From: Actinomycetota bacterium
GTDB taxonomy: Bacteria > Actinomycetota > CADDZG01 > WHSQ01
Reading direction: 5' to 3'
NCBI GenBank assembly: GCA_016781115.1
Contig: JADDQX010000001.1
Location: 1 to 42,036 of the forward strand
Length of the DNA: 42,036 bases
Made by a program: the position numbers and the translations under genes. The notes below the pieces were generated by a model, which saw only the letters and a program-made list of their open reading frames with translations, searched no databases and was not told the DNA's origin. Of this stretch, positions 1 through 42,036 are shown in pieces (position 1 is the first letter of the stretch; each line of letters opens with the position of its first letter).

Positions 1-36
1 CTACGTTGGGACGTAGGCCAGTAAGCAGAGAACGGG

Positions 37-3862: not shown

Positions 3863-4875
3863 CCGCAGTCAACATGGTTGAGGCTCTGAACAAGGGTCTT
3901 CACGAAGCCATGACGGCGGACGACAGAGTCGTCGTGTTGGGCGAAGACGTCGCGAAGACCGGCGGCGTCTTCCGCGTGACCGCGGGCCTACTCGACCGTT
4001 TCGGCGACGACAGGGTCGTGGACACTCCGCTGGCGGAAGCGGGCATCGTAGGTTCCGCGATCGGCATGGCCGTCTACGGCCTGCTGCCGGTGGCCGAGAT
4101 CCAGTTCGACTCCTTCGTCTACCCGGGGTTCGAGCAGATCGTCGTGCACGCGGCCCGCTATGCGTGGCGGACCAAGGGCGAGGTGCCGGCATCGATCGTG
4201 ATCCGCATCCCTTACGGCGGCGGCGTCCGGATGCCGGAGCTCCACTCCGACTCGCCGGAGTCACTATTCGTTCACACGCCGGGGCTCAAGGTGGTCTGCC
4301 CCTCGACGCCTGCGGACGCGCGCAACATGATCCTCGCCGCGATCGAAGATCCCGATCCGGTCATCTTCATGGAGCCGAAGCGCATCTACCGGGCGGGACG
4401 GCAGGAGATCCCGGACGAGCCGCCGTTCACGGTTGGCAACGGAAGCCCTAACGGCGCACTCAACGAGTACCTCTCCAAGGCCCGCGTGGCGCGCGAGGGA
4501 GACGACCTCGCCATCTTCACGTACGGCGCAACGGTCCCGCTAACGATCGATGCCGCGGAGAAGCTCGCTCGGGAGGAGCGGGTCGAAGCGCGTGTCGTAG
4601 ATCTTCGGTCGCTGTACCCACTCGACGTCCACGCGATCGAGAAGGCGGCCTCGGAATGTCGCCGCGCCTTGGTGGTGCATGAGGCTCCACGGACCGCCGG
4701 AGTGGGCGCCGAGGTGTCGAGCCTGATCCACGAGCGCGTGATGCTGGATCTCGAAGCGCCGGTCGGCCGCGTCACCGGCTACGACGCGCCGTTCCCGCAG
4801 TTCGCCAACGAAGACGATTACCTGCCATCCGTCGACCGCATCTTCGCGGGAGCGAAGAAGGTTCTCGAGTTCTGA
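3859..4875 (+). CDS. bkdB: Branched-chain 2-oxoacid dehydrogenase E1 beta subunit
   Basis: A 338-aa ORF with the transketolase-like pyrimidine-binding pattern (VVLGEDV...GGVFRVT...DTPLAE.GIVG.AIGMA). It is translationally coupled to both neighbouring genes. Confidence 0.9.
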   Translation: MTAVNMVEALNKGLHEAMTADDRVVVLGEDVAKTGGVFRVTAGLLDRFGDDRVVDTPLAEAGIVGSAIGMAVYGLLPVAEIQFDSFVYPGFEQIVVHAARYAWRTKGEVPASIVIRIPYGGGVRMPELHSDSPESLFVHTPGLKVVCPSTPADARNMILAAIEDPDPVIFMEPKRIYRAGRQEIPDEPPFTVGNGSPNGALNEYLSKARVAREGDDLAIFTYGATVPLTIDAAEKLAREERVEARVVDLRSLYPLDVHAIEKAASECRRALVVHEAPRTAGVGAEVSSLIHERVMLDLEAPVGRVTGYDAPFPQFANEDDYLPSVDRIFAGAKKVLEF

Positions 4876-6128
4876 TGCCGGACTTCTTGCTGCCCGACCT
4901 CGGCGAGGGCCTCACCGAGGGTGAGATCGACCGCTGGCTCGTCAAAGAGGGCGACACGGTCGCCGAAGACGACCCGCTCGTCGAGGTCATCACCGACAAG
5001 GCGACGGCCGAGATCCCGTCGCCCTTCGCCGGCGTCGTGACCAAGATCCACGTTCCCGCCGGCGCCGTCGTTGCGGTCGGCACCGCTCTTGTCACCATCG
5101 GCGAAAGTGTTCCGGGGGAGTCGGTTGCGTTGGGGGGTGGGGGCCGCGCACCGTCACCTGCGGGACCAGACGCCTCCGCCTTCGGCTCCGGGGTCGATGG
5201 TCCCCACGGCAACGGCGACGCACCCCCACTCCCACCTCGACCCGTCGAAACACGTACGAACCCCATCGGCGTCAAGGCGATGCCTCCTGTTCGGAAATTG
5301 GCTCGCGAACTCGGCATCGATCTTGCTGCCATCAGGGGGAGCGGGCCGGGCGGACGCGTCCTTCGGGCCGATGTTGAGGCTGCGGCCAATGGTCATGCTC
5401 CCGGTCTCGAGACGGGTCGGATCGAAGGCGGGGGCGAACGGCGCGAGCCCCTGCGGGGCGTGCGACGGGTGATCGCTCAGAGGATGGCGGACGCCCATCG
5501 GATCGTTCCGCCGGTTACTCATGTTGAGGAGTGCGACGTGACCGAGCTCGATGCGACGCGGAAGCTCGCGAACGAGCGGTCACCTGACGAGCTTCGGCTC
5601 ACTTACATACCGTTCATCGTCAAAGCCGTAGTGACCGCTCTCCGCGATTACCCGGCATTGAATGCCTCGCTTGATGAGGAGGCTGGCGAGATCGTCTTCC
5701 ACGATCGTTTCGACATCGGCATCGCGGTGGATACTCCGGCCGGGCTTACGGTCCCGGTCGTTCGCGGCGCGGACAAGAAGCGCCTGCGCGAGGTGGCGGT
5801 TGACGTGGACCGTTTGGCTTCCGCCGCGCGCGCGGGGAGGTCCAAGAGCGAAGATCTACGGGACGCGACGTTCACGATCTCGAGCCCCGGCCCCTTCGGA
5901 GGACTCATGGCAACGCCGATCGTCTTCCATCCGCAGTCGGCGATCCTGGGCGTACACCGGGCCACGGACCGGCCGGTCGTCCGGGACGGACAGATCGTCA
6001 TCCGGAAGATGATGAACCTCTCGATCACCTTCGACCACCGCATCCTCGACGGGATGACGGCCGCGAGGTTCATCTTGGACGTGGTTCGCCTGCTGGAGCA
6101 CCCCGCCGTCCTCGCGTTGGAGGCCTGA
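4875..6128 (+). CDS. bkdC: Dihydrolipoamide acyltransferase E2 (lipoyl domain, Ala/Pro linker, PSBD, catalytic domain)
   Basis: Lipoyl-Lys motif EVITDKATAEIPSP, a subunit-binding domain (PPVRKLARELGIDL), and the catalytic motif DHRILDG near the C-terminus. Confidence 0.9.
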   Translation: MPDFLLPDLGEGLTEGEIDRWLVKEGDTVAEDDPLVEVITDKATAEIPSPFAGVVTKIHVPAGAVVAVGTALVTIGESVPGESVALGGGGRAPSPAGPDASAFGSGVDGPHGNGDAPPLPPRPVETRTNPIGVKAMPPVRKLARELGIDLAAIRGSGPGGRVLRADVEAAANGHAPGLETGRIEGGGERREPLRGVRRVIAQRMADAHRIVPPVTHVEECDVTELDATRKLANERSPDELRLTYIPFIVKAVVTALRDYPALNASLDEEAGEIVFHDRFDIGIAVDTPAGLTVPVVRGADKKRLREVAVDVDRLASAARAGRSKSEDLRDATFTISSPGPFGGLMATPIVFHPQSAILGVHRATDRPVVRDGQIVIRKMMNLSITFDHRILDGMTAARFILDVVRLLEHPAVLALEA

Positions 6129-6250
6129 GCGAGCTTTTATCCCTCTCATCCCGAAGTGGCGGCGTGGCGGGTCCGCCGGGAGTGTAGTTGTAGGTCATCG
6201 CGAAGTGCTCGGTTCCGGTACCTCTGCTCCGACTCGGCAGCACCCGCGAG

Positions 6251-7201
6251 CTACGCCGGTCGCGCGCCGATCGTGTTGCGCAGGATCCCGATGTGTTCGA
6301 TCTCCAGCTCCACGACGTCTCCGGGGGTGAGCTGACGCCCGAGATCCAGACCACAACAACCGCCGGGGGTCCCCGACCCGTAGACGTCGCCCGGAAAGAC
6401 ATCTTCAGCTTGTGAGACGTGTGCCAGCATCTGGCTCCAGCTCCAGTGGGCTGCCGATGAACGTGCTCGTCCCCATTCCTCGCCGTTGACCCGACAGATC
6501 ATGGCGAGATCCGGTTCCGGCCCCACCTCATCCGCGGTCACGATGCACGGCCCCAGCGCGTTGGCGAAGTCCTTGCCCTTCGCTGGGCCGAGCCAGGCAG
6601 ACATCTCGCTCGACTGGACGTCGCGCGCGGAGAAGTCGTTGAAGATCGTGAATCCGAAGATGTGCTTGCCGGCTTCGTCGGCTCGGATGTCTCTGCCGCG
6701 CTTGCCGACGATCATGGCGAGCTCGAGCTCGAAGTCGAGGCGGTCCGTGTACGCGGGCCACCTGCACTCGGCGTTAGGCCCGATGATGGTCCGGTGGTTC
6801 CCCTTGTAGTACACCGGCGCCTCGTACCAGTACTCCGGCACCGCGACCTGGCGGCGTTCGGCTCCGCGACGCACGTGATCTTCGAACGCGAGGAAGTCAC
6901 GCAGAGACTGGACCCGATCCAAAGGGCATAGCAACCGGGTATCTCCATCGTCGGGCGACAGCATGAAGTCGGGGATGGTCGATGCCGCGCGGACCACGTC
7001 GCGGACCTCACTCCAAACCTCGGGACCCTGCTGGATCAAGGCATCCGTCGAGACGAGGAAGGAAGCGGTCTCGGGACTGAGACGCGTGCCGGTCACCTCG
7101 TTCCACGCGTCCAGCAGGTCGACGGGTGCCGACGAGCCCACCGCCACGGCTACCCGCGGCTGATAACCCCCGCGGTCGGATACGAAACGGTACAGCCGCA
7201 A
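6251..7201 (-). CDS. Fumarylacetoacetate hydrolase (FAH) family protein
   Basis: A 316-aa ORF with the FAH-fold pattern (FELELAMIVGKRGRD..., FGFTIFNDFSARD, GTPGG). It lies immediately downstream of hmgA. Confidence 0.8.
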   Translation of the reverse strand: MRLYRFVSDRGGYQPRVAVAVGSSAPVDLLDAWNEVTGTRLSPETASFLVSTDALIQQGPEVWSEVRDVVRAASTIPDFMLSPDDGDTRLLCPLDRVQSLRDFLAFEDHVRRGAERRQVAVPEYWYEAPVYYKGNHRTIIGPNAECRWPAYTDRLDFELELAMIVGKRGRDIRADEAGKHIFGFTIFNDFSARDVQSSEMSAWLGPAKGKDFANALGPCIVTADEVGPEPDLAMICRVNGEEWGRARSSAAHWSWSQMLAHVSQAEDVFPGDVYGSGTPGGCCGLDLGRQLTPGDVVELEIEHIGILRNTIGARPA

Positions 7202-19409: not shown

Positions 19410-20008
19410 GAGGCCATCCTAGTAACCGGTTCCGTAGGAGCGAGCAGGGTCTGGACCGTCTCTTCGACCAGACCCTGGATCTCGTGATCCAGCGCAGAAC
19501 CCGAGATCAGCGAGCGACGGATCGCCGCCTGCGGCACGTCCAACAATGCGAAGCGAGCTAGAGCGAGCGATATCCCCGGGACGCGGGCGGCGAAGGTTCT
19601 CAGGCCGTCGGTGATGTCGTTCGCCAGCCGGACGGCACGCCGGCTGAGGACCGGCGGCCACTCGGTTGTGGTGAACCCGCCGCGGGGATACAGGAGGAAG
19701 AACGCGGCCTCGCCGGGGCGTCGCCGCGCCCAATCGAGCATCAGATCTACGGCCGCCAGCGCGCCGCCAGCCGGATCGGTGGCGGCCAGGGCGTCGCGCA
19801 GCTGCGCCTGGAAGCGCTCCCCCGTCCGCAGCCAGGCCGACGCCATCAACGCGTCTCGGGATGGGAAGCGGTGATAGATCGAGCCGCTGGGCGCCCCCAG
19901 CACGTCCGCGACCATGGCTATGGTGACCTCGGCGGGGCCGCGGCGCCGCAGCACTTCGATCACGGCGTCGAGGATCTGCTCGCTCGAGTACTTCGGGGGC
20001 CGCGCCAC
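19406..20008 (-). CDS. TetR/AcrR family transcriptional regulator
   Basis: A 200-aa ORF with the N-terminal HTH pattern ILDAVIEVLRRRGPAEVTIAMVADVLGAPSGSIYHRFPSRDAL. It has a GTG start, and its stop overlaps the purB start by 4 nt. Confidence 0.88.
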   Translation of the reverse strand: MARPPKYSSEQILDAVIEVLRRRGPAEVTIAMVADVLGAPSGSIYHRFPSRDALMASAWLRTGERFQAQLRDALAATDPAGGALAAVDLMLDWARRRPGEAAFFLLYPRGGFTTTEWPPVLSRRAVRLANDITDGLRTFAARVPGISLALARFALLDVPQAAIRRSLISGSALDHEIQGLVEETVQTLLAPTEPVTRMAS

Positions 20009-32132: not shown

Positions 32133-33485
32133 ATGGGAGACATGACGAGCACCTGGTCGCCCGGCTCCTGGCGTGATGTGGAGACGGCGCAGCAGCCCGA
32201 ATGGCCCGACGATGCGCATCTTGGATCGACGCTGGAAACGCTGCGCGCCCTCCCCCCACTCGTGTTCGCGGGCGAAGCGAGGAGATTGAAAGAGGCGATG
32301 ACGAAGGTGTCGCGGGGAGAAGCCTTCGTGCTGCAAGCCGGAGATTGTGCCGAATCGTTCGGCGACTTCTCCGCGGATGGGATCAGGGACAAGCTCAAGA
32401 TCATCTTGCAGATGGCGGTCGTCCTCACCTACGCATCGGGCTTACCTGTTGTGAAGATCGGTCGCATCGCAGGGCAGTTCGCGAAGCCGCGAAGCTCCGC
32501 AAGCGAAACGCTCGACGACAAGGTCCTTCCTTCGTTCCGAGGCCACGCGGTGAACGACGCTGCATTCGACGAGGCGTCGCGGCGTGCCGATCCCGACCGC
32601 CTGGTGCGCGCGTATCAACAGTCCGCCTCTACCTTGAACCTGATCCGAGCCTTCACGAAGGGAGGGTTCGCGGATCTCAACCAGGTTCACATGTGGAACC
32701 AGGAGTTCGTAGCCGAGAGCCGGCAGGGCCGGCGATACGAAGCGATGGCTCGCGAGATCGACCGCGCGCTGCGATTCATGGGCGCGTGCGGCGTGGATCT
32801 ATCGGCGGACTCTAGCTTGCACGAGGTCGACCTCTACACCTCGCACGAGGCACTGATCCTGGGTTACGAAGAGGCGCTCACGCGCCAAGACAGTCTCACG
32901 GGAGACTGGTACGACTGCTCCGCTCACATGCTGTGGATCGGCGACCGAACGCGTCAGCTCCAGGGCGGTCACGTGGAGTTCCTATCCGGAGTGGAGAACC
33001 CGATCGCATGCAAGATAGGACCCTCCGCGACGACTGCCGACTTGCTCGCGTTGTGCGAACGTCTCAATCCGCGCAACGAGCCCGGGAGACTCGCCTTCAT
33101 CACGCGCATGGGAAGTGGCTCGATAGAAGAGGCACTCCCTCCGCTGGTGCGGGCGGTGCGCGATTCGGAGATCGAAGTGACCTGGATCTGTGACCCGATG
33201 CACGGCAACACCTTCTCGAGCTCGGGCGGTTACAAGACCCGGCGCTTCGACGACATCCTCGGTGAGATCAAGGGCTTCTTCGCGGTGCACCAGCGAGAGG
33301 GAACCGTCCCTGGAGGGGTTCATCTGGAGCTGACACACCACGCCGTCACCGAATGCCTCGGAGGCTCCGAGGAGATCTTGGACACGCACCTGTCGGAGCG
33401 GTATCAGGCTCTGTGTGACCCTCGCCTCAACGCTCGACAGTCCGTCGATCTCGCGTTCCAGGTCGGCGAGATGCTGCAGGGCTAG
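32133..33485 (+). CDS. aroG: Class II (plant/Mycobacterium-type) 3-deoxy-7-phosphoheptulonate (DAHP) synthase
   Basis: A 450-aa ORF with WSPGSWR...QQPEWPD, LPPLVFAGEAR and AFVLQAGDCAESF signatures. An alternative ATG lies at 32142. Confidence 0.9.
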   Translation: MGDMTSTWSPGSWRDVETAQQPEWPDDAHLGSTLETLRALPPLVFAGEARRLKEAMTKVSRGEAFVLQAGDCAESFGDFSADGIRDKLKIILQMAVVLTYASGLPVVKIGRIAGQFAKPRSSASETLDDKVLPSFRGHAVNDAAFDEASRRADPDRLVRAYQQSASTLNLIRAFTKGGFADLNQVHMWNQEFVAESRQGRRYEAMAREIDRALRFMGACGVDLSADSSLHEVDLYTSHEALILGYEEALTRQDSLTGDWYDCSAHMLWIGDRTRQLQGGHVEFLSGVENPIACKIGPSATTADLLALCERLNPRNEPGRLAFITRMGSGSIEEALPPLVRAVRDSEIEVTWICDPMHGNTFSSSGGYKTRRFDDILGEIKGFFAVHQREGTVPGGVHLELTHHAVTECLGGSEEILDTHLSERYQALCDPRLNARQSVDLAFQVGEMLQG

Positions 33486-33718
33486 GAGCGGAGCTCCCGC
33501 ACCGACCTCAGCACGTCTTCATACTCCGCGTGACGCCCTGTTGTCCTCTTCGAGTGGATCAGGTGACCGTCGACCTCGACCTCGAAGACACCGCCGCGCG
33601 AGGGCACGATCACCAGATCGCTGATGTCTTGCTCGAACTCTTCTAGAAGACGTTCCGTCAGACCGACGGCTTTAGGCGCGTAGCCTCATTGGGCGCAGTA
33701 CTCGATGGAGATCCTCAT
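33482..33718 (-). CDS. SelW/Rdx-family small redox protein with an in-frame TGA at the CxxU position (candidate selenoprotein), absent from the six-frame ORF track
   Basis: I translated it by hand codon by codon: ATG(33718) MRISIEYCAQ-TGA(33688-33686)-GYAPKAVGLTERLLEEFEQDISDLVIVPSRGGVFEVEVDGHLIHSKRTTGRHAEYEDVLRSVRELRS-TAG(33484-33482). That is 79 codons with GC3-rich codon usage on both sides of the TGA. The IEYCxx[C/U] and GG.FEV..DG.L..SK patterns are typical of the Rdx fold. Confidence 0.75.
33643..33675 (-). promoter_or_regulatory. Candidate bacterial SECIS hairpin downstream of the in-frame UGA
   Basis: The RNA is CUAAAG-CCGUC-GGUCU-GACGG-AACGU-CUUCUAG. The upper stem CCGUC/GACGG is capped by GGUCU, and the lower stem is CUAAAG/CUU(C)UAG. 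The loop starts 25 nt from the U of UGA. It shares the GGUC apical loop with the E. coli fdhF SECIS. Confidence 0.55.
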
Positions 33719-33764: not shown

Positions 33765-34424
33765 TTAGAGCGTGGCTATCCAGGCGGCGACTGCCTCGAT
33801 CGCCTCCTGCAACGCGTCTGCGCTGGTCCTTCCGGAGGATCTGCGCACCGCGAACGAATGATCCCCGTCGTCGATGATGGCAAGCGTCGTGGAGCCGGGG
33901 ATCCCGGCGCGCACGCGTTCTAGCGTCTCCAGCGGGCAGAAGGGGTCCCTCGTTCCCTCCACGAACAACATCGGGACGCGGACCTCGTGGAGATGCGCGT
34001 CCCGGACGCGGTCGGGTCGTCCGGGCGGATGCAGCGGGTAGCCCAGGAAGACGAGCCCGTCGCATGCCGTGCCACCCCGCGGGAGATGCGAGGCGATCCG
34101 GCCCCCCATCGATTTCCCTCCCAGGAAGAGCCGCGTCGGGCTCAGTCGCGAACGCACGTGCTCCACCACGGCGTCGTACGTCTGCTCGAGGATCGGTTGC
34201 CGATCCGGAGCCTTCCGTCCCAGCTCCGCGTAGCGGAAGTTGAAGCGGATCGTCGCGATACCCGAGCGCGCACAACCCTCTGCGAACCTCTTCATGAACG
34301 GGTGGTGCATCCCGGCTCCGGCACCGTGCGCCAGGATCAGAAGATCCGCCGTGGGACTCCCGTCTAGCGCCAGGGAGACGTCGCCTGCAGGAGTCGCGAC
34401 CAGCTCTTCCAGGCCCGAGATCAC
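33765..34424 (-). CDS. Alpha/beta hydrolase (dienelactone-hydrolase/KANL3-like)
   Basis: A 219-aa ORF with the nucleophile elbow GGKSMGG, a later DGDH, and a GTG start. Confidence 0.8.
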   Translation of the reverse strand: MISGLEELVATPAGDVSLALDGSPTADLLILAHGAGAGMHHPFMKRFAEGCARSGIATIRFNFRYAELGRKAPDRQPILEQTYDAVVEHVRSRLSPTRLFLGGKSMGGRIASHLPRGGTACDGLVFLGYPLHPPGRPDRVRDAHLHEVRVPMLFVEGTRDPFCPLETLERVRAGIPGSTTLAIIDDGDHSFAVRRSSGRTSADALQEAIEAVAAWIATL

Positions 34425-40324: not shown

Positions 40325-42036
40325 TCAGAGGCCGGGACCTTTCGCGATGGACGCGAACTTCGTGTACTGGTTCATGAACGCGAGTCTGACGGTTCCGGTG
40401 GGGCCGTTGCGATGCTTCGCAACGATGAGCTCGGCTTCACCCTTGTTCGGCGAGTCGGGGTTATAGACCTCGTCGCGATAGATGAACATCACCATGTCCG
40501 AGTCCTGTTCGATACTATTATGGGAAAATATTCCATTCGCCACGAAGTTGTGGTTTCCAGTGACCGTTGCGTCGTAGACCTCTTCCTCACCCAGATAATC
40601 CACGCCTACGACCGAATCCCAGAAAAGGTCCGACCCAGCTAGCGCTAGAAGTTCCGCATCGTTGTAGTACTCACCTAGTTTCTGAACGACGGTCCGGGTC
40701 GGTGCGGAATATCGATTGAAGCTAGGTTCGAAGCCAACGCCGACGGCTGCCGCAATCGATTTCAGAGACGCGGTCCCCGCGACCATGATGAATCTCTGCC
40801 ACACGTCTTCCGGAATGGTGTCGCGATTCGACCAGGTTCGGCGGGTGCTCATGTACTGAACGATCTCTGCCAACCCCGGCTTCTTAGGGCCGAAGGCCCC
40901 GATCTCATTCACGAACGATTCCATGGATGACCCCGACGTCACGAACGCCTGATGCATGTCCCGATACGAACCTTTGTGCGTGGTTCCCAGCCGCACCACG
41001 ATTCCGAAGCGCAACAGAAGATCGGCTACGTCTTCAACCAGTCTCCTGCTAGACGAGGCGTAGTAGATGGATGGCCCTCGCGACCCGCGGGCTGAAGGAC
41101 GGTGACCTATGAACCCATCCGTCGCCCAGAGGTGGCGCAGGAAGAGTGCGATCTGGCGCTTGGGCAGCCCGAAGACCTCTTTGGGGATGAACTTCTCGTG
41201 CGAGCGCTTGTCGTACAGGCCGAGCGAATCCATCCACGCGACGATCGGATTCCTGCGGCCGTGCGTGACCGGGTAAGGCGACGGCATGAACAGTTGGTAC
41301 GAGCGAGCCTGTGGCTCGAACTTGATCCGGACCGTCACTCCGAACGCCTTGGCCGCGTCTCCGACCGCCTGCAGGTTCTCCTGGCTCATCGACGCGTACC
41401 GGGTCGGCAGACGACGCAGGCAACTGCCGTCGCCGATCATGTGAGCGAGCAGGATCACATGCTCGTCCGGCCACTCCACCGTCTGTTCAGGTTCTGGAAG
41501 CATCCGAGGGATCGCCAGCCTCTCGCCGATCTCTAGCTCGTCCACCCGCTTCCAGCCATCGAAGGAGAGGAACGGATGATTCGCCGACGCCTTGATCTCG
41601 CGGCCCGAGCGGAGCTTGAGCTTGTAGATCTTCTTCACTCCGCTCGAGAAAACATGCGTCATGTTGCCGCGCTCGATCTTTAGGTCTTCGTTGACCGTCC
41701 AAACAGGAATGTCTCGCGCTCCGGAGCGGCAGAGATCACCCATCGTCACCCATTCACCCGTGTCGGCACGCGCAATGCGGGTGTCGGCGGTCAAGCATCC
41801 CGATTCACGGAGGTCACCTAGGAACGGGCGCTTGTCCGAGCGATATTCGACGCCTCGGTTGAGCTGCGACGCGCAGATCACGGGGATCGACAGTTCCTTC
41901 GCGAGGATCTTCAAGGACCGAGAGATCTCAGAGACCTCCTGCTGACGGTTCTCGGACTTCCGCGGCGACTGCATCAACTGCAGGTAGTCGATGATCACGA
42001 GGCCGAGCCCGTGCTTTGCCTTCAGGCGCCGGCACT
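40325..42036 (-). CDS. dnaB: Replicative DNA helicase DnaB, 5'-truncated by the window edge, interrupted by an intein
   Basis: The exteins read ...CRRLKAKHGLGLVIIDYLQLMQSPRKSENRQQEVSEISRSLKILAKELSIPVICASQLNRGVEYRSDKRPFLGDLRESG / SIEQDSDMVMFIYRDEVYNPDSPNKGEAELIVAKHRNGPTGTVRLAFMNQYTKF. The reading frame is open to position 42036. Confidence 0.93.
   Translation of the reverse strand, partial: CRRLKAKHGLGLVIIDYLQLMQSPRKSENRQQEVSEISRSLKILAKELSIPVICASQLNRGVEYRSDKRPFLGDLRESGCLTADTRIARADTGEWVTMGDLCRSGARDIPVWTVNEDLKIERGNMTHVFSSGVKKIYKLKLRSGREIKASANHPFLSFDGWKRVDELEIGERLAIPRMLPEPEQTVEWPDEHVILLAHMIGDGSCLRRLPTRYASMSQENLQAVGDAAKAFGVTVRIKFEPQARSYQLFMPSPYPVTHGRRNPIVAWMDSLGLYDKRSHEKFIPKEVFGLPKRQIALFLRHLWATDGFIGHRPSARGSRGPSIYYASSSRRLVEDVADLLLRFGIVVRLGTTHKGSYRDMHQAFVTSGSSMESFVNEIGAFGPKKPGLAEIVQYMSTRRTWSNRDTIPEDVWQRFIMVAGTASLKSIAAAVGVGFEPSFNRYSAPTRTVVQKLGEYYNDAELLALAGSDLFWDSVVGVDYLGEEEVYDATVTGNHNFVANGIFSHNSIEQDSDMVMFIYRDEVYNPDSPNKGEAELIVAKHRNGPTGTVRLAFMNQYTKFASIAKGPGL
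40517..41797 (-). mobile_element. DnaB intein (427 codons) with an embedded LAGLIDADG homing-endonuclease domain
   Basis: It begins CLTADTRI (Cys1) directly after RESG and ends FVANGIFSHN followed by Ser+1 (SIEQD). Block B is SANHPF. The LAGLIDADG-like motifs are LLAHMIGDGS and FLRHLWATDGF. The 3' part has markedly lower-GC codons than its surroundings. Confidence 0.9.

What the first reader, a model, noticed from the sequence alone, without database searches (positions are those of the whole stretch)
33643..33675. SECIS-like hairpin with a GGUC(U) apical loop just downstream of the in-frame UGA
Counting from the U of UGA (33688), nucleotides +14 to +46 fold as a lower stem CUAAAG/CUU(C)UAG, an asymmetric internal loop (AACGU), an upper stem CCGUC/GACGG and an apical loop GGUCU. 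The E. coli fdhF SECIS presents G23/U24 in a GGUC apical loop to SelB. Here the same tetranucleotide sits at +25 to +28, within the spacing range usually allowed for bacterial SECIS elements. The structure lies inside coding sequence, where a hairpin this regular is not expected by chance alone.
Basis: partly seen in the sequence, partly recalled or inferred. Interest (0 to 1): 0.7.

Follow-up and report, generated by a model that had tools for sequence, protein, structure and literature searches.

The report
Selenocysteine-insertion hairpin in a SelW-like gene
The small RNA hairpin after the in-frame UGA is most likely a real but ordinary bacterial selenocysteine-insertion signal in a SelW-like redox protein gene, and only its upper stem and loop are supported.

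Summary
The hairpin exists as described. Its 5-bp upper stem, CCGUC/GACGG (33669-33665 / 33659-33655, minus strand), closes a GGUCU loop 21 nt after an in-frame UGA. That UGA is codon 11 of a 78-codon Rdx/SelW-like gene with a CxxU motif (33482-33718, minus).

On this sequence alone the hairpin is not beyond chance. Its folding z-score is -0.83. An equally good SECIS-like hairpin follows 7-16% of all TGA triplets in the window.

The comparative evidence settles it:
- In 73 orthologous loci from Actinomycetota, Acidimicrobiia and Chloroflexota MAGs, the UGA is kept and a hairpin with G-[G/U] in the loop sits at the same place.
- The upper stem is 99.6% paired, and three of its five pairs show compensatory double changes.
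- The loop glycine codon is GGU in 35 of 35 genes, against 10% in the rest of the same genes.
- A covariance model hits only this site.
- Three Cys-type lineages lack the hairpin, and a fourth keeps a remnant of it.
- One orthologue lies next to tRNA-Sec, a SelD-like gene and selA.

This is a new member of a known kind, a bacterial SECIS in a SelW-like selenoprotein gene, and it is of modest interest.

The parts
33482..33718 (-). SelW-like (Rdx family) selenoprotein gene of 78 codons: MRISIEYCAQ-U-GYAPKAVGLTERLL...
   Evidence: Translation is. With U replaced by C, it matches Pfam Rdx PF10262 at E=1.9e-21, covering profile positions 1-74 of 74. It matches NCBIfam TIGR02174 CXXU_selWTH at 64.5 bits against a cutoff of 34.2.
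33686..33688 (-). In-frame UGA at codon 11, the predicted selenocysteine codon of the CxxU motif (Cys codon at 33695-33697).
   Evidence: TGA is at the same codon in the window gene and in 73 parsed orthologous loci. Cys-type homologues L074 and L081-L085 have TGC or TGT there. TGA is an ordinary stop in 13 of 31 window genes.
33665..33669 (-). 5' arm of the SECIS upper stem, CCGUC (+20..+24).
   Evidence: It is part of the minimum-free-energy structure and has pair probability of at least 0.95. It is 99.6% paired in 46 distinct orthologues, and 3 of the 5 pairs show changes on both sides.
33660..33664 (-). Apical loop GGUCU (+25..+29). G26 (33663) and U27 (33662) are the likely SelB contact bases.
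   Evidence: G26 is invariant and U27 is at least 90% conserved in 50 class A sequences. The Gly codon at nt 25-27 is GGT in 35 of 35 genes, against a 10% background.
33655..33659 (-). 3' arm of the SECIS upper stem, GACGG (+30..+34).
   Evidence: Same evidence as for the 5' arm.
33670..33676 (-). 5' flank CCUAAAG (+13..+19). It is conserved at nucleotide level through rare codons. Its role is unknown.
   Evidence: Pro is CCT in 29 of 37 genes (background 0.08). The next codon is AGA in 19 genes (background 0.02) or AAA in 12. No conserved pairing partner explains this.
33643..33649 (-). Not supported as part of the element.
   Evidence: Adding it raises the energy by 1.8 kcal/mol, and its pair probability is 0.10 or less. 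It is 60.5% paired in orthologues and absent from the RNAalifold consensus.

Best explanation
The hairpin at 33655-33669 (minus strand) is the SECIS element of a SelW-like (Rdx-family) selenoprotein mRNA.

**Proposed mechanism (inferred from the E. coli and Moorella systems, not shown here)**
1. The ribosome reaches the UGA at codon 11.
2. The 5-bp stem with its GGUCU loop then lies just outside the mRNA entry channel.
3. The C-terminal winged-helix domains of SelB bind the loop, mainly G26 and U27.
4. This tethers SelB-GTP-Sec-tRNA(Sec) at the A site.
5. UGA is read as selenocysteine instead of stop, giving a CxxU redox centre.

**Shown here**
- The gene family and the conserved UGA.
- A conserved, covarying hairpin, with selection acting at the nucleotide level.

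**Inferred**
- SelB binding and Sec insertion.
- The presence of selA, selB, selC and selD elsewhere in this genome.

The RNA requirement also appears to dictate the local peptide motif A-V-G-L-T/A.
For: **The gene**
- It matches Rdx/SelW-like profiles over their full length, with a CxxU motif.
- SelW-like proteins are a known bacterial selenoprotein family with few Cys homologues (PMC1794560, PMC1088965).

**Orthologues**
- All 73 further loci parsed with the CxxU pattern carry TGA at that codon.
- Every one has a hairpin of at least 4 contiguous bp there, in one of two registers.

**Class A register (50 sequences, including the window)**
- The stem +20..24 / +30..34 is 99.6% paired.
- Double changes occur at 3 of its 5 pairs.
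- Some are coupled amino-acid changes: L038 reads CCACC/GGUGG (Val to Thr with Thr to Val), L077 reads CCAUC/GAUGG (Val to Ile with Thr to Met), and L055 reads CCGCC/GGCGG.
- Sliding the 3' partners by 1-3 columns drops pairing in the 7-pair test from 80% to 8-53%.

**Class B register (24 sequences, mostly Acidimicrobiia)**
- A different hairpin, shifted 4 nt upstream, is 92% paired.
- It has 17 cells with changes on both sides.

**Selection at synonymous sites**
- Gly is GGT in 35 of 35 genes, against a 0.10 background.
- GCC, GTC and ACG are likewise fixed.

**Specificity**
- Covariance model R1 gives one strong hit in the window, at 30.9 bits.
- In 553 kb of loci, all 59 hits with E of 0.05 or less lie at this position of the gene. 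They include loci not used to build the model: L013, L016, L022, L048, L073, L086 and L088.

**Cys-type homologues**
- L074, L081/L082 and L084/L085 lack both the hairpin and the AVGL motif.
- L083 keeps a degenerate remnant.

**Link to the Sec machinery**
- In L047 the orthologue is followed directly by tRNA-Sec, a SelD-like gene and selA.

**Fit to the published consensus**
- The loop, stem and spacing fit the bSECIS consensus (PMC13188914).
- The GGUCUG core matches verified E. coli fdhF.
Against: - No selA, selB, selC or selD, and no tRNA-Sec, lies in the 42-kb window. The Sec competence of this particular genome is therefore unproven.
- The hairpin is small. It scores -7.4 kcal/mol, just short of the -7.5 threshold of the bSECIS model, and -6.1 as an isolated 15-mer.
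- It is not thermodynamically exceptional.
- No Rfam family matches it.
- Much of the conservation is shared by descent, so the shuffle statistics overstate independence.
- In some orthologues (L009, L014) the hairpin is not the predicted equilibrium structure in the +1..+63 context.
- There is no experimental evidence.
Confidence: 0.9

Rival explanations
1. The hairpin is a by-product of a conserved peptide motif, A-V-G-L-T, encoded with ordinary codons. It has no RNA-level function.
For: - The stem and loop coincide exactly with the codons GCC GUC GGU CUG ACG.
- That peptide is conserved in many orthologues.
- 27.5% of synonymous resamplings still give some hairpin of at least 5 bp with GU in the loop.
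Against: - Synonymous sites are fixed far beyond background. GGT is used in 35 of 35 genes against 10%, and GCC, GTC and ACG are also fixed.
- Amino-acid replacements come in base-pair-preserving couples (V/T, I/M, A/A), and double changes are seen at 3 of 5 pairs.
- Class B lineages encode a different peptide (AVSM or AVRM) yet form a hairpin in a shifted register.
- Cys-type homologues drop both the motif and the hairpin.
Confidence: 0.04
2. The TGA is a true stop. Either the gene is a pseudogene, or the real gene is the 43-codon ORF that starts at GTG 33613. On this reading the hairpin is incidental or acts as a transcription or translation attenuator.
For: - Gene callers in public databases start nearly all homologues downstream of the TGA.
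- TGA is a normal stop in this window.
- No Sec machinery lies in the window.
Against: - The Rdx profile matches across the TGA over its whole length.
- The 10 codons upstream, including the Cys of the CxxU motif, are conserved in 73 loci across phyla.
- No U-run follows the hairpin.
- One orthologue lies next to tRNA-Sec and selA.
Confidence: 0.03
3. UGA is recoded here by a route that does not depend on SelB. Examples are near-cognate Trp or Cys read-through, or an alternative genetic code. On this reading the hairpin only slows the ribosome.
For: - Some database entries translate this codon as W, G or S.
- Structures downstream of a stop codon can promote read-through in other systems (general knowledge).
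Against: - Those translations are gene-caller artefacts, because the DNA has TGA.
- TGA ends 13 of 31 genes in the window.
- The position aligns with the redox Cys of Cys-type homologues.
- The loop keeps the G-[G/U] signature of SelB-binding SECIS elements in both registers.
Confidence: 0.03

Closest known systems
Bacterial SECIS elements as described by the bSECISearch consensus model (Zhang and Gladyshev 2005, summarised in PMC13188914)
   Same: - It lies in coding sequence directly after an in-frame UGA.
- It has a small apical loop of 5 nt.
- G occupies the first two loop positions and is followed by U.
- It has a 5-bp upper stem.
- 21 nt separate the UGA from the loop, within the allowed 16-37 nt.
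   Different: - Its stability is at or just below the model's cutoff of -7.5 kcal/mol.
- No conserved lower stem is present.
- A conserved single-stranded 5' flank, CCUARAG, is not part of the model.
E. coli fdhF SECIS (minimal 17-nt upper stem-loop, with G23/U24 in the loop and a bulged U17)
   Same: - It shares the GGUCUG core, read in the same frame as Gly-Leu. The fdhF sequence was verified.
- G and U are exposed in a small loop.
- It is presumed to work the same way, by tethering SelB.
   Different: - The loop lies one codon further from the UGA: G26/U27 against G23/U24.
- It is a pentaloop closed by C-G, not AGGUCU or an A-U-closed tetraloop.
- The 5' arm has no bulged U.
- The helix is shorter, and there is no lower helix.
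- The host protein is unrelated.
SelW-like (Rdx family, PF10262 / TIGR02174) bacterial selenoproteins, for example those from Sargasso Sea and GOS metagenomes and from Symbiobacterium, Desulfotomaculum and Campylobacter
   Same: - It has the CxxU motif near the N-terminus.
- It is about 75-80 aa long.
- The SECIS lies directly after the UGA.
- Cys homologues are rare (PMC1794560, PMC1088965).
   Different: - This copy comes from a lineage of uncultured, high-GC Actinomycetota.
- It scores below the cutoff of the Campylobacter equivalog NF041051 (80.1 against 88 bits).
- Its SECIS has not been described specifically.

Membership tests
Bacterial SECIS (bSECISearch consensus, PMC13188914 Fig. 2A) | An apical loop of 3-9 nt and an upper stem of 4-16 bp. 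| tested here: met
   The loop is the 5-nt GGUCU and the stem is the 5-bp CCGUC/GACGG.
Bacterial SECIS (bSECISearch consensus, PMC13188914 Fig. 2A) | At least one G in the first two loop positions, usually as G[G|U]. | tested here: met
   The loop starts GGU. G26 is invariant and U27 is at least 90% conserved in 50 orthologues. In class B, G22 is invariant and U23 is at least 90% conserved.
Bacterial SECIS (bSECISearch consensus, PMC13188914 Fig. 2A) | A spacing of 16-37 nt between the UGA and the apical loop. | tested here: met
   The spacing is 21 nt (+4..+24) in the window and in class A, and 17 nt in class B.
Bacterial SECIS (bSECISearch consensus, PMC13188914 Fig. 2A) | A minimum free energy of -7.5 kcal/mol or lower. 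| tested here: inconclusive
   The 33-nt segment gives -7.4 and the isolated 15-mer gives -6.1. The result depends on the segment and the energy parameters used by the original program.
Bacterial SECIS (functional definition) | It follows an in-frame UGA that aligns with Cys in homologues, inside a conserved ORF. | tested here: met
   The CxxU motif aligns with CxxC in L074 and L081-L085. The ORF is conserved on both sides of the UGA in 73 loci.
Bacterial SECIS (functional definition) | The structure is conserved, with compensatory substitutions, among orthologues that carry the TGA. | tested here: met
   Shown. The covariance model is specific to this site.
Bacterial SECIS (functional definition) | It binds SelB and directs Sec insertion. 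| not testable with these tools
   This needs a binding assay, a reporter assay, or 75Se labelling or mass spectrometry.
Bacterial SECIS (functional definition) | The genome encodes selA, selB, selC and selD. | tested here: inconclusive
   None lies in the 42-kb window, and the rest of the genome is not available. In orthologue L047, tRNA-Sec, a SelD-like gene and SelA are adjacent to the gene.
E. coli fdhF-type SECIS | A bulged U (U17) in the 5' arm, with G23/U24 in the loop 11 nt or more from the UGA. | tested here: not met
   The 5' arm CCGUC is fully paired, so there is no bulge. The G-U pair of loop bases sits at +26/+27 rather than +23/+24 (PMC8659212).
SelW-like / Rdx selenoprotein family | An Rdx-fold domain with a CxxU or CxxC motif near the N-terminus. 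| tested here: met
   It matches PF10262 at 76.5 bits over the full profile and TIGR02174 at 64.5 bits, above the 34.2 cutoff. The motif is C8-A-Q-U11.
Rfam SECIS families | A match to a curated covariance model. | tested here: not met
   No SECIS family matched at the gathering threshold or at E of 10 or less. These models are specific to particular lineages and genes, so this does not argue against function.

The most novel reading that the evidence does not exclude
The element may be more than the minimal hairpin.
- The 7-nt flank just 5' of the stem, CCUA(G/A)AG, is held by very rare codons from Actinomycetota to Chloroflexota and has no conserved pairing partner. It could be a second recognition or spacing determinant for SelB or for the ribosome entry site.
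- The family also shows the SECIS moving by 4 nt between lineages: the loop G-U sits at +26/+27 in one group and at +22/+23 in the other. The encoded peptide is rewritten in the process, from AVGL to AVSM or AVRM.
- This would be a natural example of how a coding-region RNA signal and a protein co-evolve.
Probability: 0.15. Interest if true: 0.45.

Novelty: new member of a known kind. Interest (0 to 1): 0.25.

Why it matters
**Annotation.** The practical value is for gene annotation. Of 38 database homologues of this protein, 37 are N-terminally truncated. The remaining one, P0001, is full length but has an AGA (Arg) codon in place of TGA. Among the relatives of the Cys-type homologue L074, several entries carry TGA translated as W, G or S. 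The redox-active CxxU centre is therefore missing from the public proteins of a whole group of uncultured soil Actinomycetota, Acidimicrobiia and Chloroflexota. Recognising the SECIS restores the full 78-residue selenoprotein. It also marks the source organism as a probable selenocysteine user.

**Biology.** The mechanism is textbook and the protein family is known. The finding confirms existing knowledge rather than extending it.

**Data set.** The 74-sequence alignment with two hairpin registers is a clean data set for studying how a SECIS constrains, and is constrained by, the peptide it encodes.

Tried and rejected
- **Rfam.** Scans at the gathering threshold and at E of 10 or less found no SECIS family.
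- **Single-sequence thermodynamics.** Dinucleotide shuffles and synonymous-codon shuffles show that the hairpin is not unusually stable. The native region is in fact less structured than 94% of synonymous variants.
It is rejected on energy, on covariation and by RNAalifold. The lower pairing CCU/AGG seen in L001-type relatives is not present in the window sequence and is not conserved.
- **Flank insulation.** I tested whether the rare AT-rich flank codons protect the hairpin from competing structure. For the window sequence this is suggestive: stem probability is 0.96 against a median of 0.06, and 3.9% of flank-synonymous shuffles reach the native value. L003 behaves similarly, but eight other orthologues do not, so the idea is left open.
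- **Other selenoprotein genes in the window.** A scan for in-frame TGA between coding-like segments found nothing credible.
- **Second covariance-model hit.** The hit at 19617-19639 (minus strand) lies inside an uninterrupted TetR ORF with no in-frame TGA, so it is treated as chance.
- **Sec machinery.** None was found in the window.
- **Literature.** A search for GGUCU-loop SECIS elements gave nothing useful. From memory, the Moorella thermoacetica fdhA SECIS used in SelB co-crystals also has a C-GGUCU-G loop. I could not verify this here and do not use it as evidence.

Full report
**What is there.**
On the minus strand, an ORF runs from ATG 33718 to TAG 33482. It reads MRISIEYCAQ-TGA-GYAPKAVGLTERLLEEFEQ.... 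With the TGA read as Cys, the 78-residue product matches:
- Pfam Rdx (PF10262) over the whole profile, at E=1.9e-21;
- NCBIfam TIGR02174, 'CXXU_selWTH', at 64.5 bits against a cutoff of 34.2.

The TGA (33688-33686) is therefore the U of a CxxU redox motif in a SelW-like protein. This is a known bacterial selenoprotein family with few Cys homologues (PMC1088965 and PMC1794560). TGA ends 13 of 31 ordinary genes in the window, so the codon is not generally reassigned.

**Checking the observation.**
Counting the U of UGA as +1:
- CCGUC (+20..24) pairs with GACGG (+30..34) around the loop GGUCU (+25..29).
- This is the minimum-free-energy structure of the 33-mer, at -7.4 kcal/mol.
- Its pair probability is at least 0.95, even within +1..+63.

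The proposed lower stem CUAAAG/CUU(C)UAG is not supported:
- Adding it raises the energy to -5.6 kcal/mol.
- Its pairs have probability 0.10 or less, and about 0 in context.

The hairpin alone is not beyond chance:
- The z-score is -0.83.
- 94% of synonymous recodings fold more stably.
- 16% of the 972 TGA triplets in the window are followed by an equally good SECIS-like hairpin, or 6.5% if G[G/U] is required in the loop.
- The one distinctive point is that it is the only one of the 91 GGTCT sites in the window closed by at least 5 bp.

**Comparative evidence.**
A protein search returned 38 homologues. Of these, 37 are N-terminally truncated, as expected if gene callers stop at a TGA. A scan of one genome per species returned 80 loci, mostly MAGs of Actinomycetota, Acidimicrobiia and Chloroflexota.

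- In 73 of these loci the CxxU pattern could be parsed, and the codon is TGA in all of them.
- L048 is cut by the contig end before the motif Cys but also shows the in-frame stop codon.
- L074 has TGC.

Every sequence has a hairpin at the same place, in one of two registers.

*Class A* (50 sequences, including the window):
- The stem is at +20..24 / +30..34.
- The loops are mostly GGUCU, and otherwise CGUGC, AGUUU or AGGAU.
- The five pairs are 99.6% paired.
- Changes on both sides occur at three of the five pairs.
- Some are coupled amino-acid replacements that preserve pairing: L038 reads CCACC/GGUGG (AVGLT becomes ATGLV), L077 reads CCAUC/GAUGG (AIGLM), and L055 reads CCGCC/GGCGG.
- Sliding the partner columns drops pairing in the 7-pair test from 80% to 8-53%.

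*Class B* (24 sequences, mainly Acidimicrobiia):
- The stem is at +13..20 / +26..33 around CGUGA-type loops.
- It is 92% paired, with 17 cells changed on both sides.

In both classes a G is invariant and the next base is U in at least 90% of sequences, at +26/27 in class A and +22/23 in class B. RNAalifold, given no structure, predicts only these upper stems.

**Selection at the RNA level, not only on the peptide.**
In 50 distinct class A genes, the glycine codon in the loop is GGT in 35 of 35. Its frequency in the rest of the same genes is 10%. GCC, GTC and ACG in the stem are similarly fixed.

A covariance model of +16..+38 (R1) gives:
- one strong hit in the window, at 30.9 bits and E about 2e-5;
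- 59 hits with E of 0.05 or less in 553 kb of fetched loci, all at this position of the gene, including seven loci not used for training.

**Cys control.**
Four Cys-type lineages were recovered:
- L074, L081/L082 and L084/L085 have lost both the AVGL peptide and the hairpin.
- L083 keeps AVGL and a strong hairpin, GGCUGUC-GGCUU-GACAGCC, whose loop has drifted. This resembles the 'remnant SECIS' reported after recent Sec-to-Cys conversion (PMC1794560).

The sample is small, but it points the expected way.

**Link to the Sec machinery.**
The window holds no tRNA-Sec, selA, selB or selD. Its genes are chromosomal housekeeping genes, covering purine synthesis, branched-chain keto-acid dehydrogenase and tyrosine catabolism.

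In the Verrucomicrobiales locus L047, the orthologue has a CCGUC-GGUCU-GGCGG hairpin. It is followed directly by tRNA-Sec, an AIR-synthase-family gene of SelD size, and selA.

**Comparison with known elements.**
The published bacterial SECIS consensus (PMC13188914) asks for four things:

| Constraint | Here | Result |
|---|---|---|
| Loop of 3-9 nt and stem of 4-16 bp | 5 nt and 5 bp | met |
| G in the first two loop positions, usually G[G/U] | GGU | met |
| 16-37 nt between UGA and loop | 21 nt | met |
| MFE of -7.5 kcal/mol or lower | -7.4 | borderline |

I verified the E. coli fdhF sequence by a 100% match in 5,419 genomes.
- GGUCUG lies at +22..27 in fdhF and at +25..30 here.
- Both are read as Gly-Leu in the same frame.
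- G23/U24 and the bulged U17 are the SelB determinants in fdhF (PMC8659212).

The present hairpin has no bulged U, sits one codon further from the UGA, and has no lower helix. It therefore works like fdhF's SECIS but is not of the fdhF subtype. A general statement that bacterial SECIS loops carry a conserved G about 20 nt after the UGA (PMC4605307) fits both registers.

**Mechanism.**
Shown here:
- the gene family;
- the conserved UGA;
- the conserved, covarying hairpin with a G-U loop;
- nucleotide-level selection;
- loss of the hairpin in Cys forms.

Inferred from the E. coli and Moorella systems:
- SelB's C-terminal winged-helix domains bind the loop while the UGA is in the A site.
- SelB then delivers Sec-tRNA(Sec).

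**Rivals.**
- A pure coding by-product is contradicted by the fixed synonymous sites, the coupled replacements, the shifted class B hairpin and the Cys forms.
- A true stop or pseudogene is contradicted by conservation across the UGA and the full-length domain match.
- SelB-independent read-through has no support.

**Loose ends.**
- The 5' flank CCUA(G/A)AG is kept by rare codons: CCT has a background of 0.08 and AGA of 0.02. No conserved partner explains this.
- In the window sequence, the AT-rich flank codons keep the hairpin free of competing structure. Only 3.9% of flank-synonymous variants do as well. This does not hold in most orthologues.

**Verdict.**
The finding is correct in its essentials: this is a SECIS with a GGUC-type loop. 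Its lower half is over-described. It is a new member of a known kind. Its main value is in correcting annotation and in flagging Sec use in this uncultured actinobacterial lineage.

Noticed in passing
window 33670-33676 (-); same columns (+13..+19) in L001-L021, L031, L056-L064: The 7 nt just 5' of the SECIS stem read CCUA(G/A)AG and are held by rare codons. CCT is used in 29 of 37 Pro codons (background 0.08), and AGA in 19 genes (background 0.02). This holds from Actinomycetota to Chloroflexota, and no conserved base-pairing partner was found. The stretch also contains an out-of-frame UAA or UAG.
   Followed up: partly
L023, L025, L027-L030, L033-L034, L036-L037, L039-L041, L044, L052, L072, L076, L078-L079 (nt +13..+33 after TGA): In Acidimicrobiia-type orthologues the SECIS hairpin sits 4 nt closer to the UGA, with loop CGUGA or GGUC(C) and G-U at +22/+23. 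It encodes AVSM or AVRM instead of AVGL. The signal has shifted register within one gene family.
   Followed up: yes
L083:301-594 (Cys form, TGC): This Cys-type homologue still carries a very stable SECIS-like hairpin, GGCUGUC-GGCUU-GACAGCC (-26.6 kcal/mol with its lower stem), and the AVGL peptide. It looks like a recent Sec-to-Cys conversion that has kept a fossil SECIS.
   Followed up: partly
L089:401-637 (protein P0001): This is the only full-length database homologue of the window protein. It has AGA (Arg) in place of TGA, and a new Cys six residues downstream (APECVGL). Most of the hairpin is kept. It comes from a single 1-kb metagenome contig, so it may be a sequencing error or a real loss of Sec.
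   Followed up: no
L047:3908-6731: In a Verrucomicrobiales MAG, the SelW-like gene is followed directly by tRNA-Sec (4168-4263), a SelD-like AIRS-family gene (4366-5394) and selA (5394-6731).
   Followed up: yes
proteins P0046-P0048, P0108, P0136, P0153, P0126: Public protein entries for this family show W, G or S at the Sec position. For P0046-P0048 the fetched DNA has TGA there and does not translate to the stored protein under the standard bacterial code. The rest were not checked at the DNA level. Most other entries are N-terminally truncated.
   Followed up: partly
window 33482-33485: The SelW-like gene (minus strand) and the class II DAHP synthase gene (plus strand, 32133-33485) converge. 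Their TAG stop codons overlap in a palindromic CTAG.
   Followed up: no
window 40325-41998 (-): A DnaB-type helicase C-terminal region is interrupted by an intein with a LAGLIDADG homing-endonuclease domain. The ORF runs towards the end of the window.
   Followed up: no
window 33765-34424 (-): An Abhydrolase_11 alpha/beta hydrolase gene ends 46 nt upstream of the SelW-like start codon on the same strand, so the two may be co-transcribed. Synteny in relatives was not examined.
   Followed up: no
window 19617-19639 (-): The second-best hit of the SECIS covariance model (22.3 bits) lies inside an uninterrupted TetR-family ORF with no in-frame TGA. It is treated as a chance match.
   Followed up: yes
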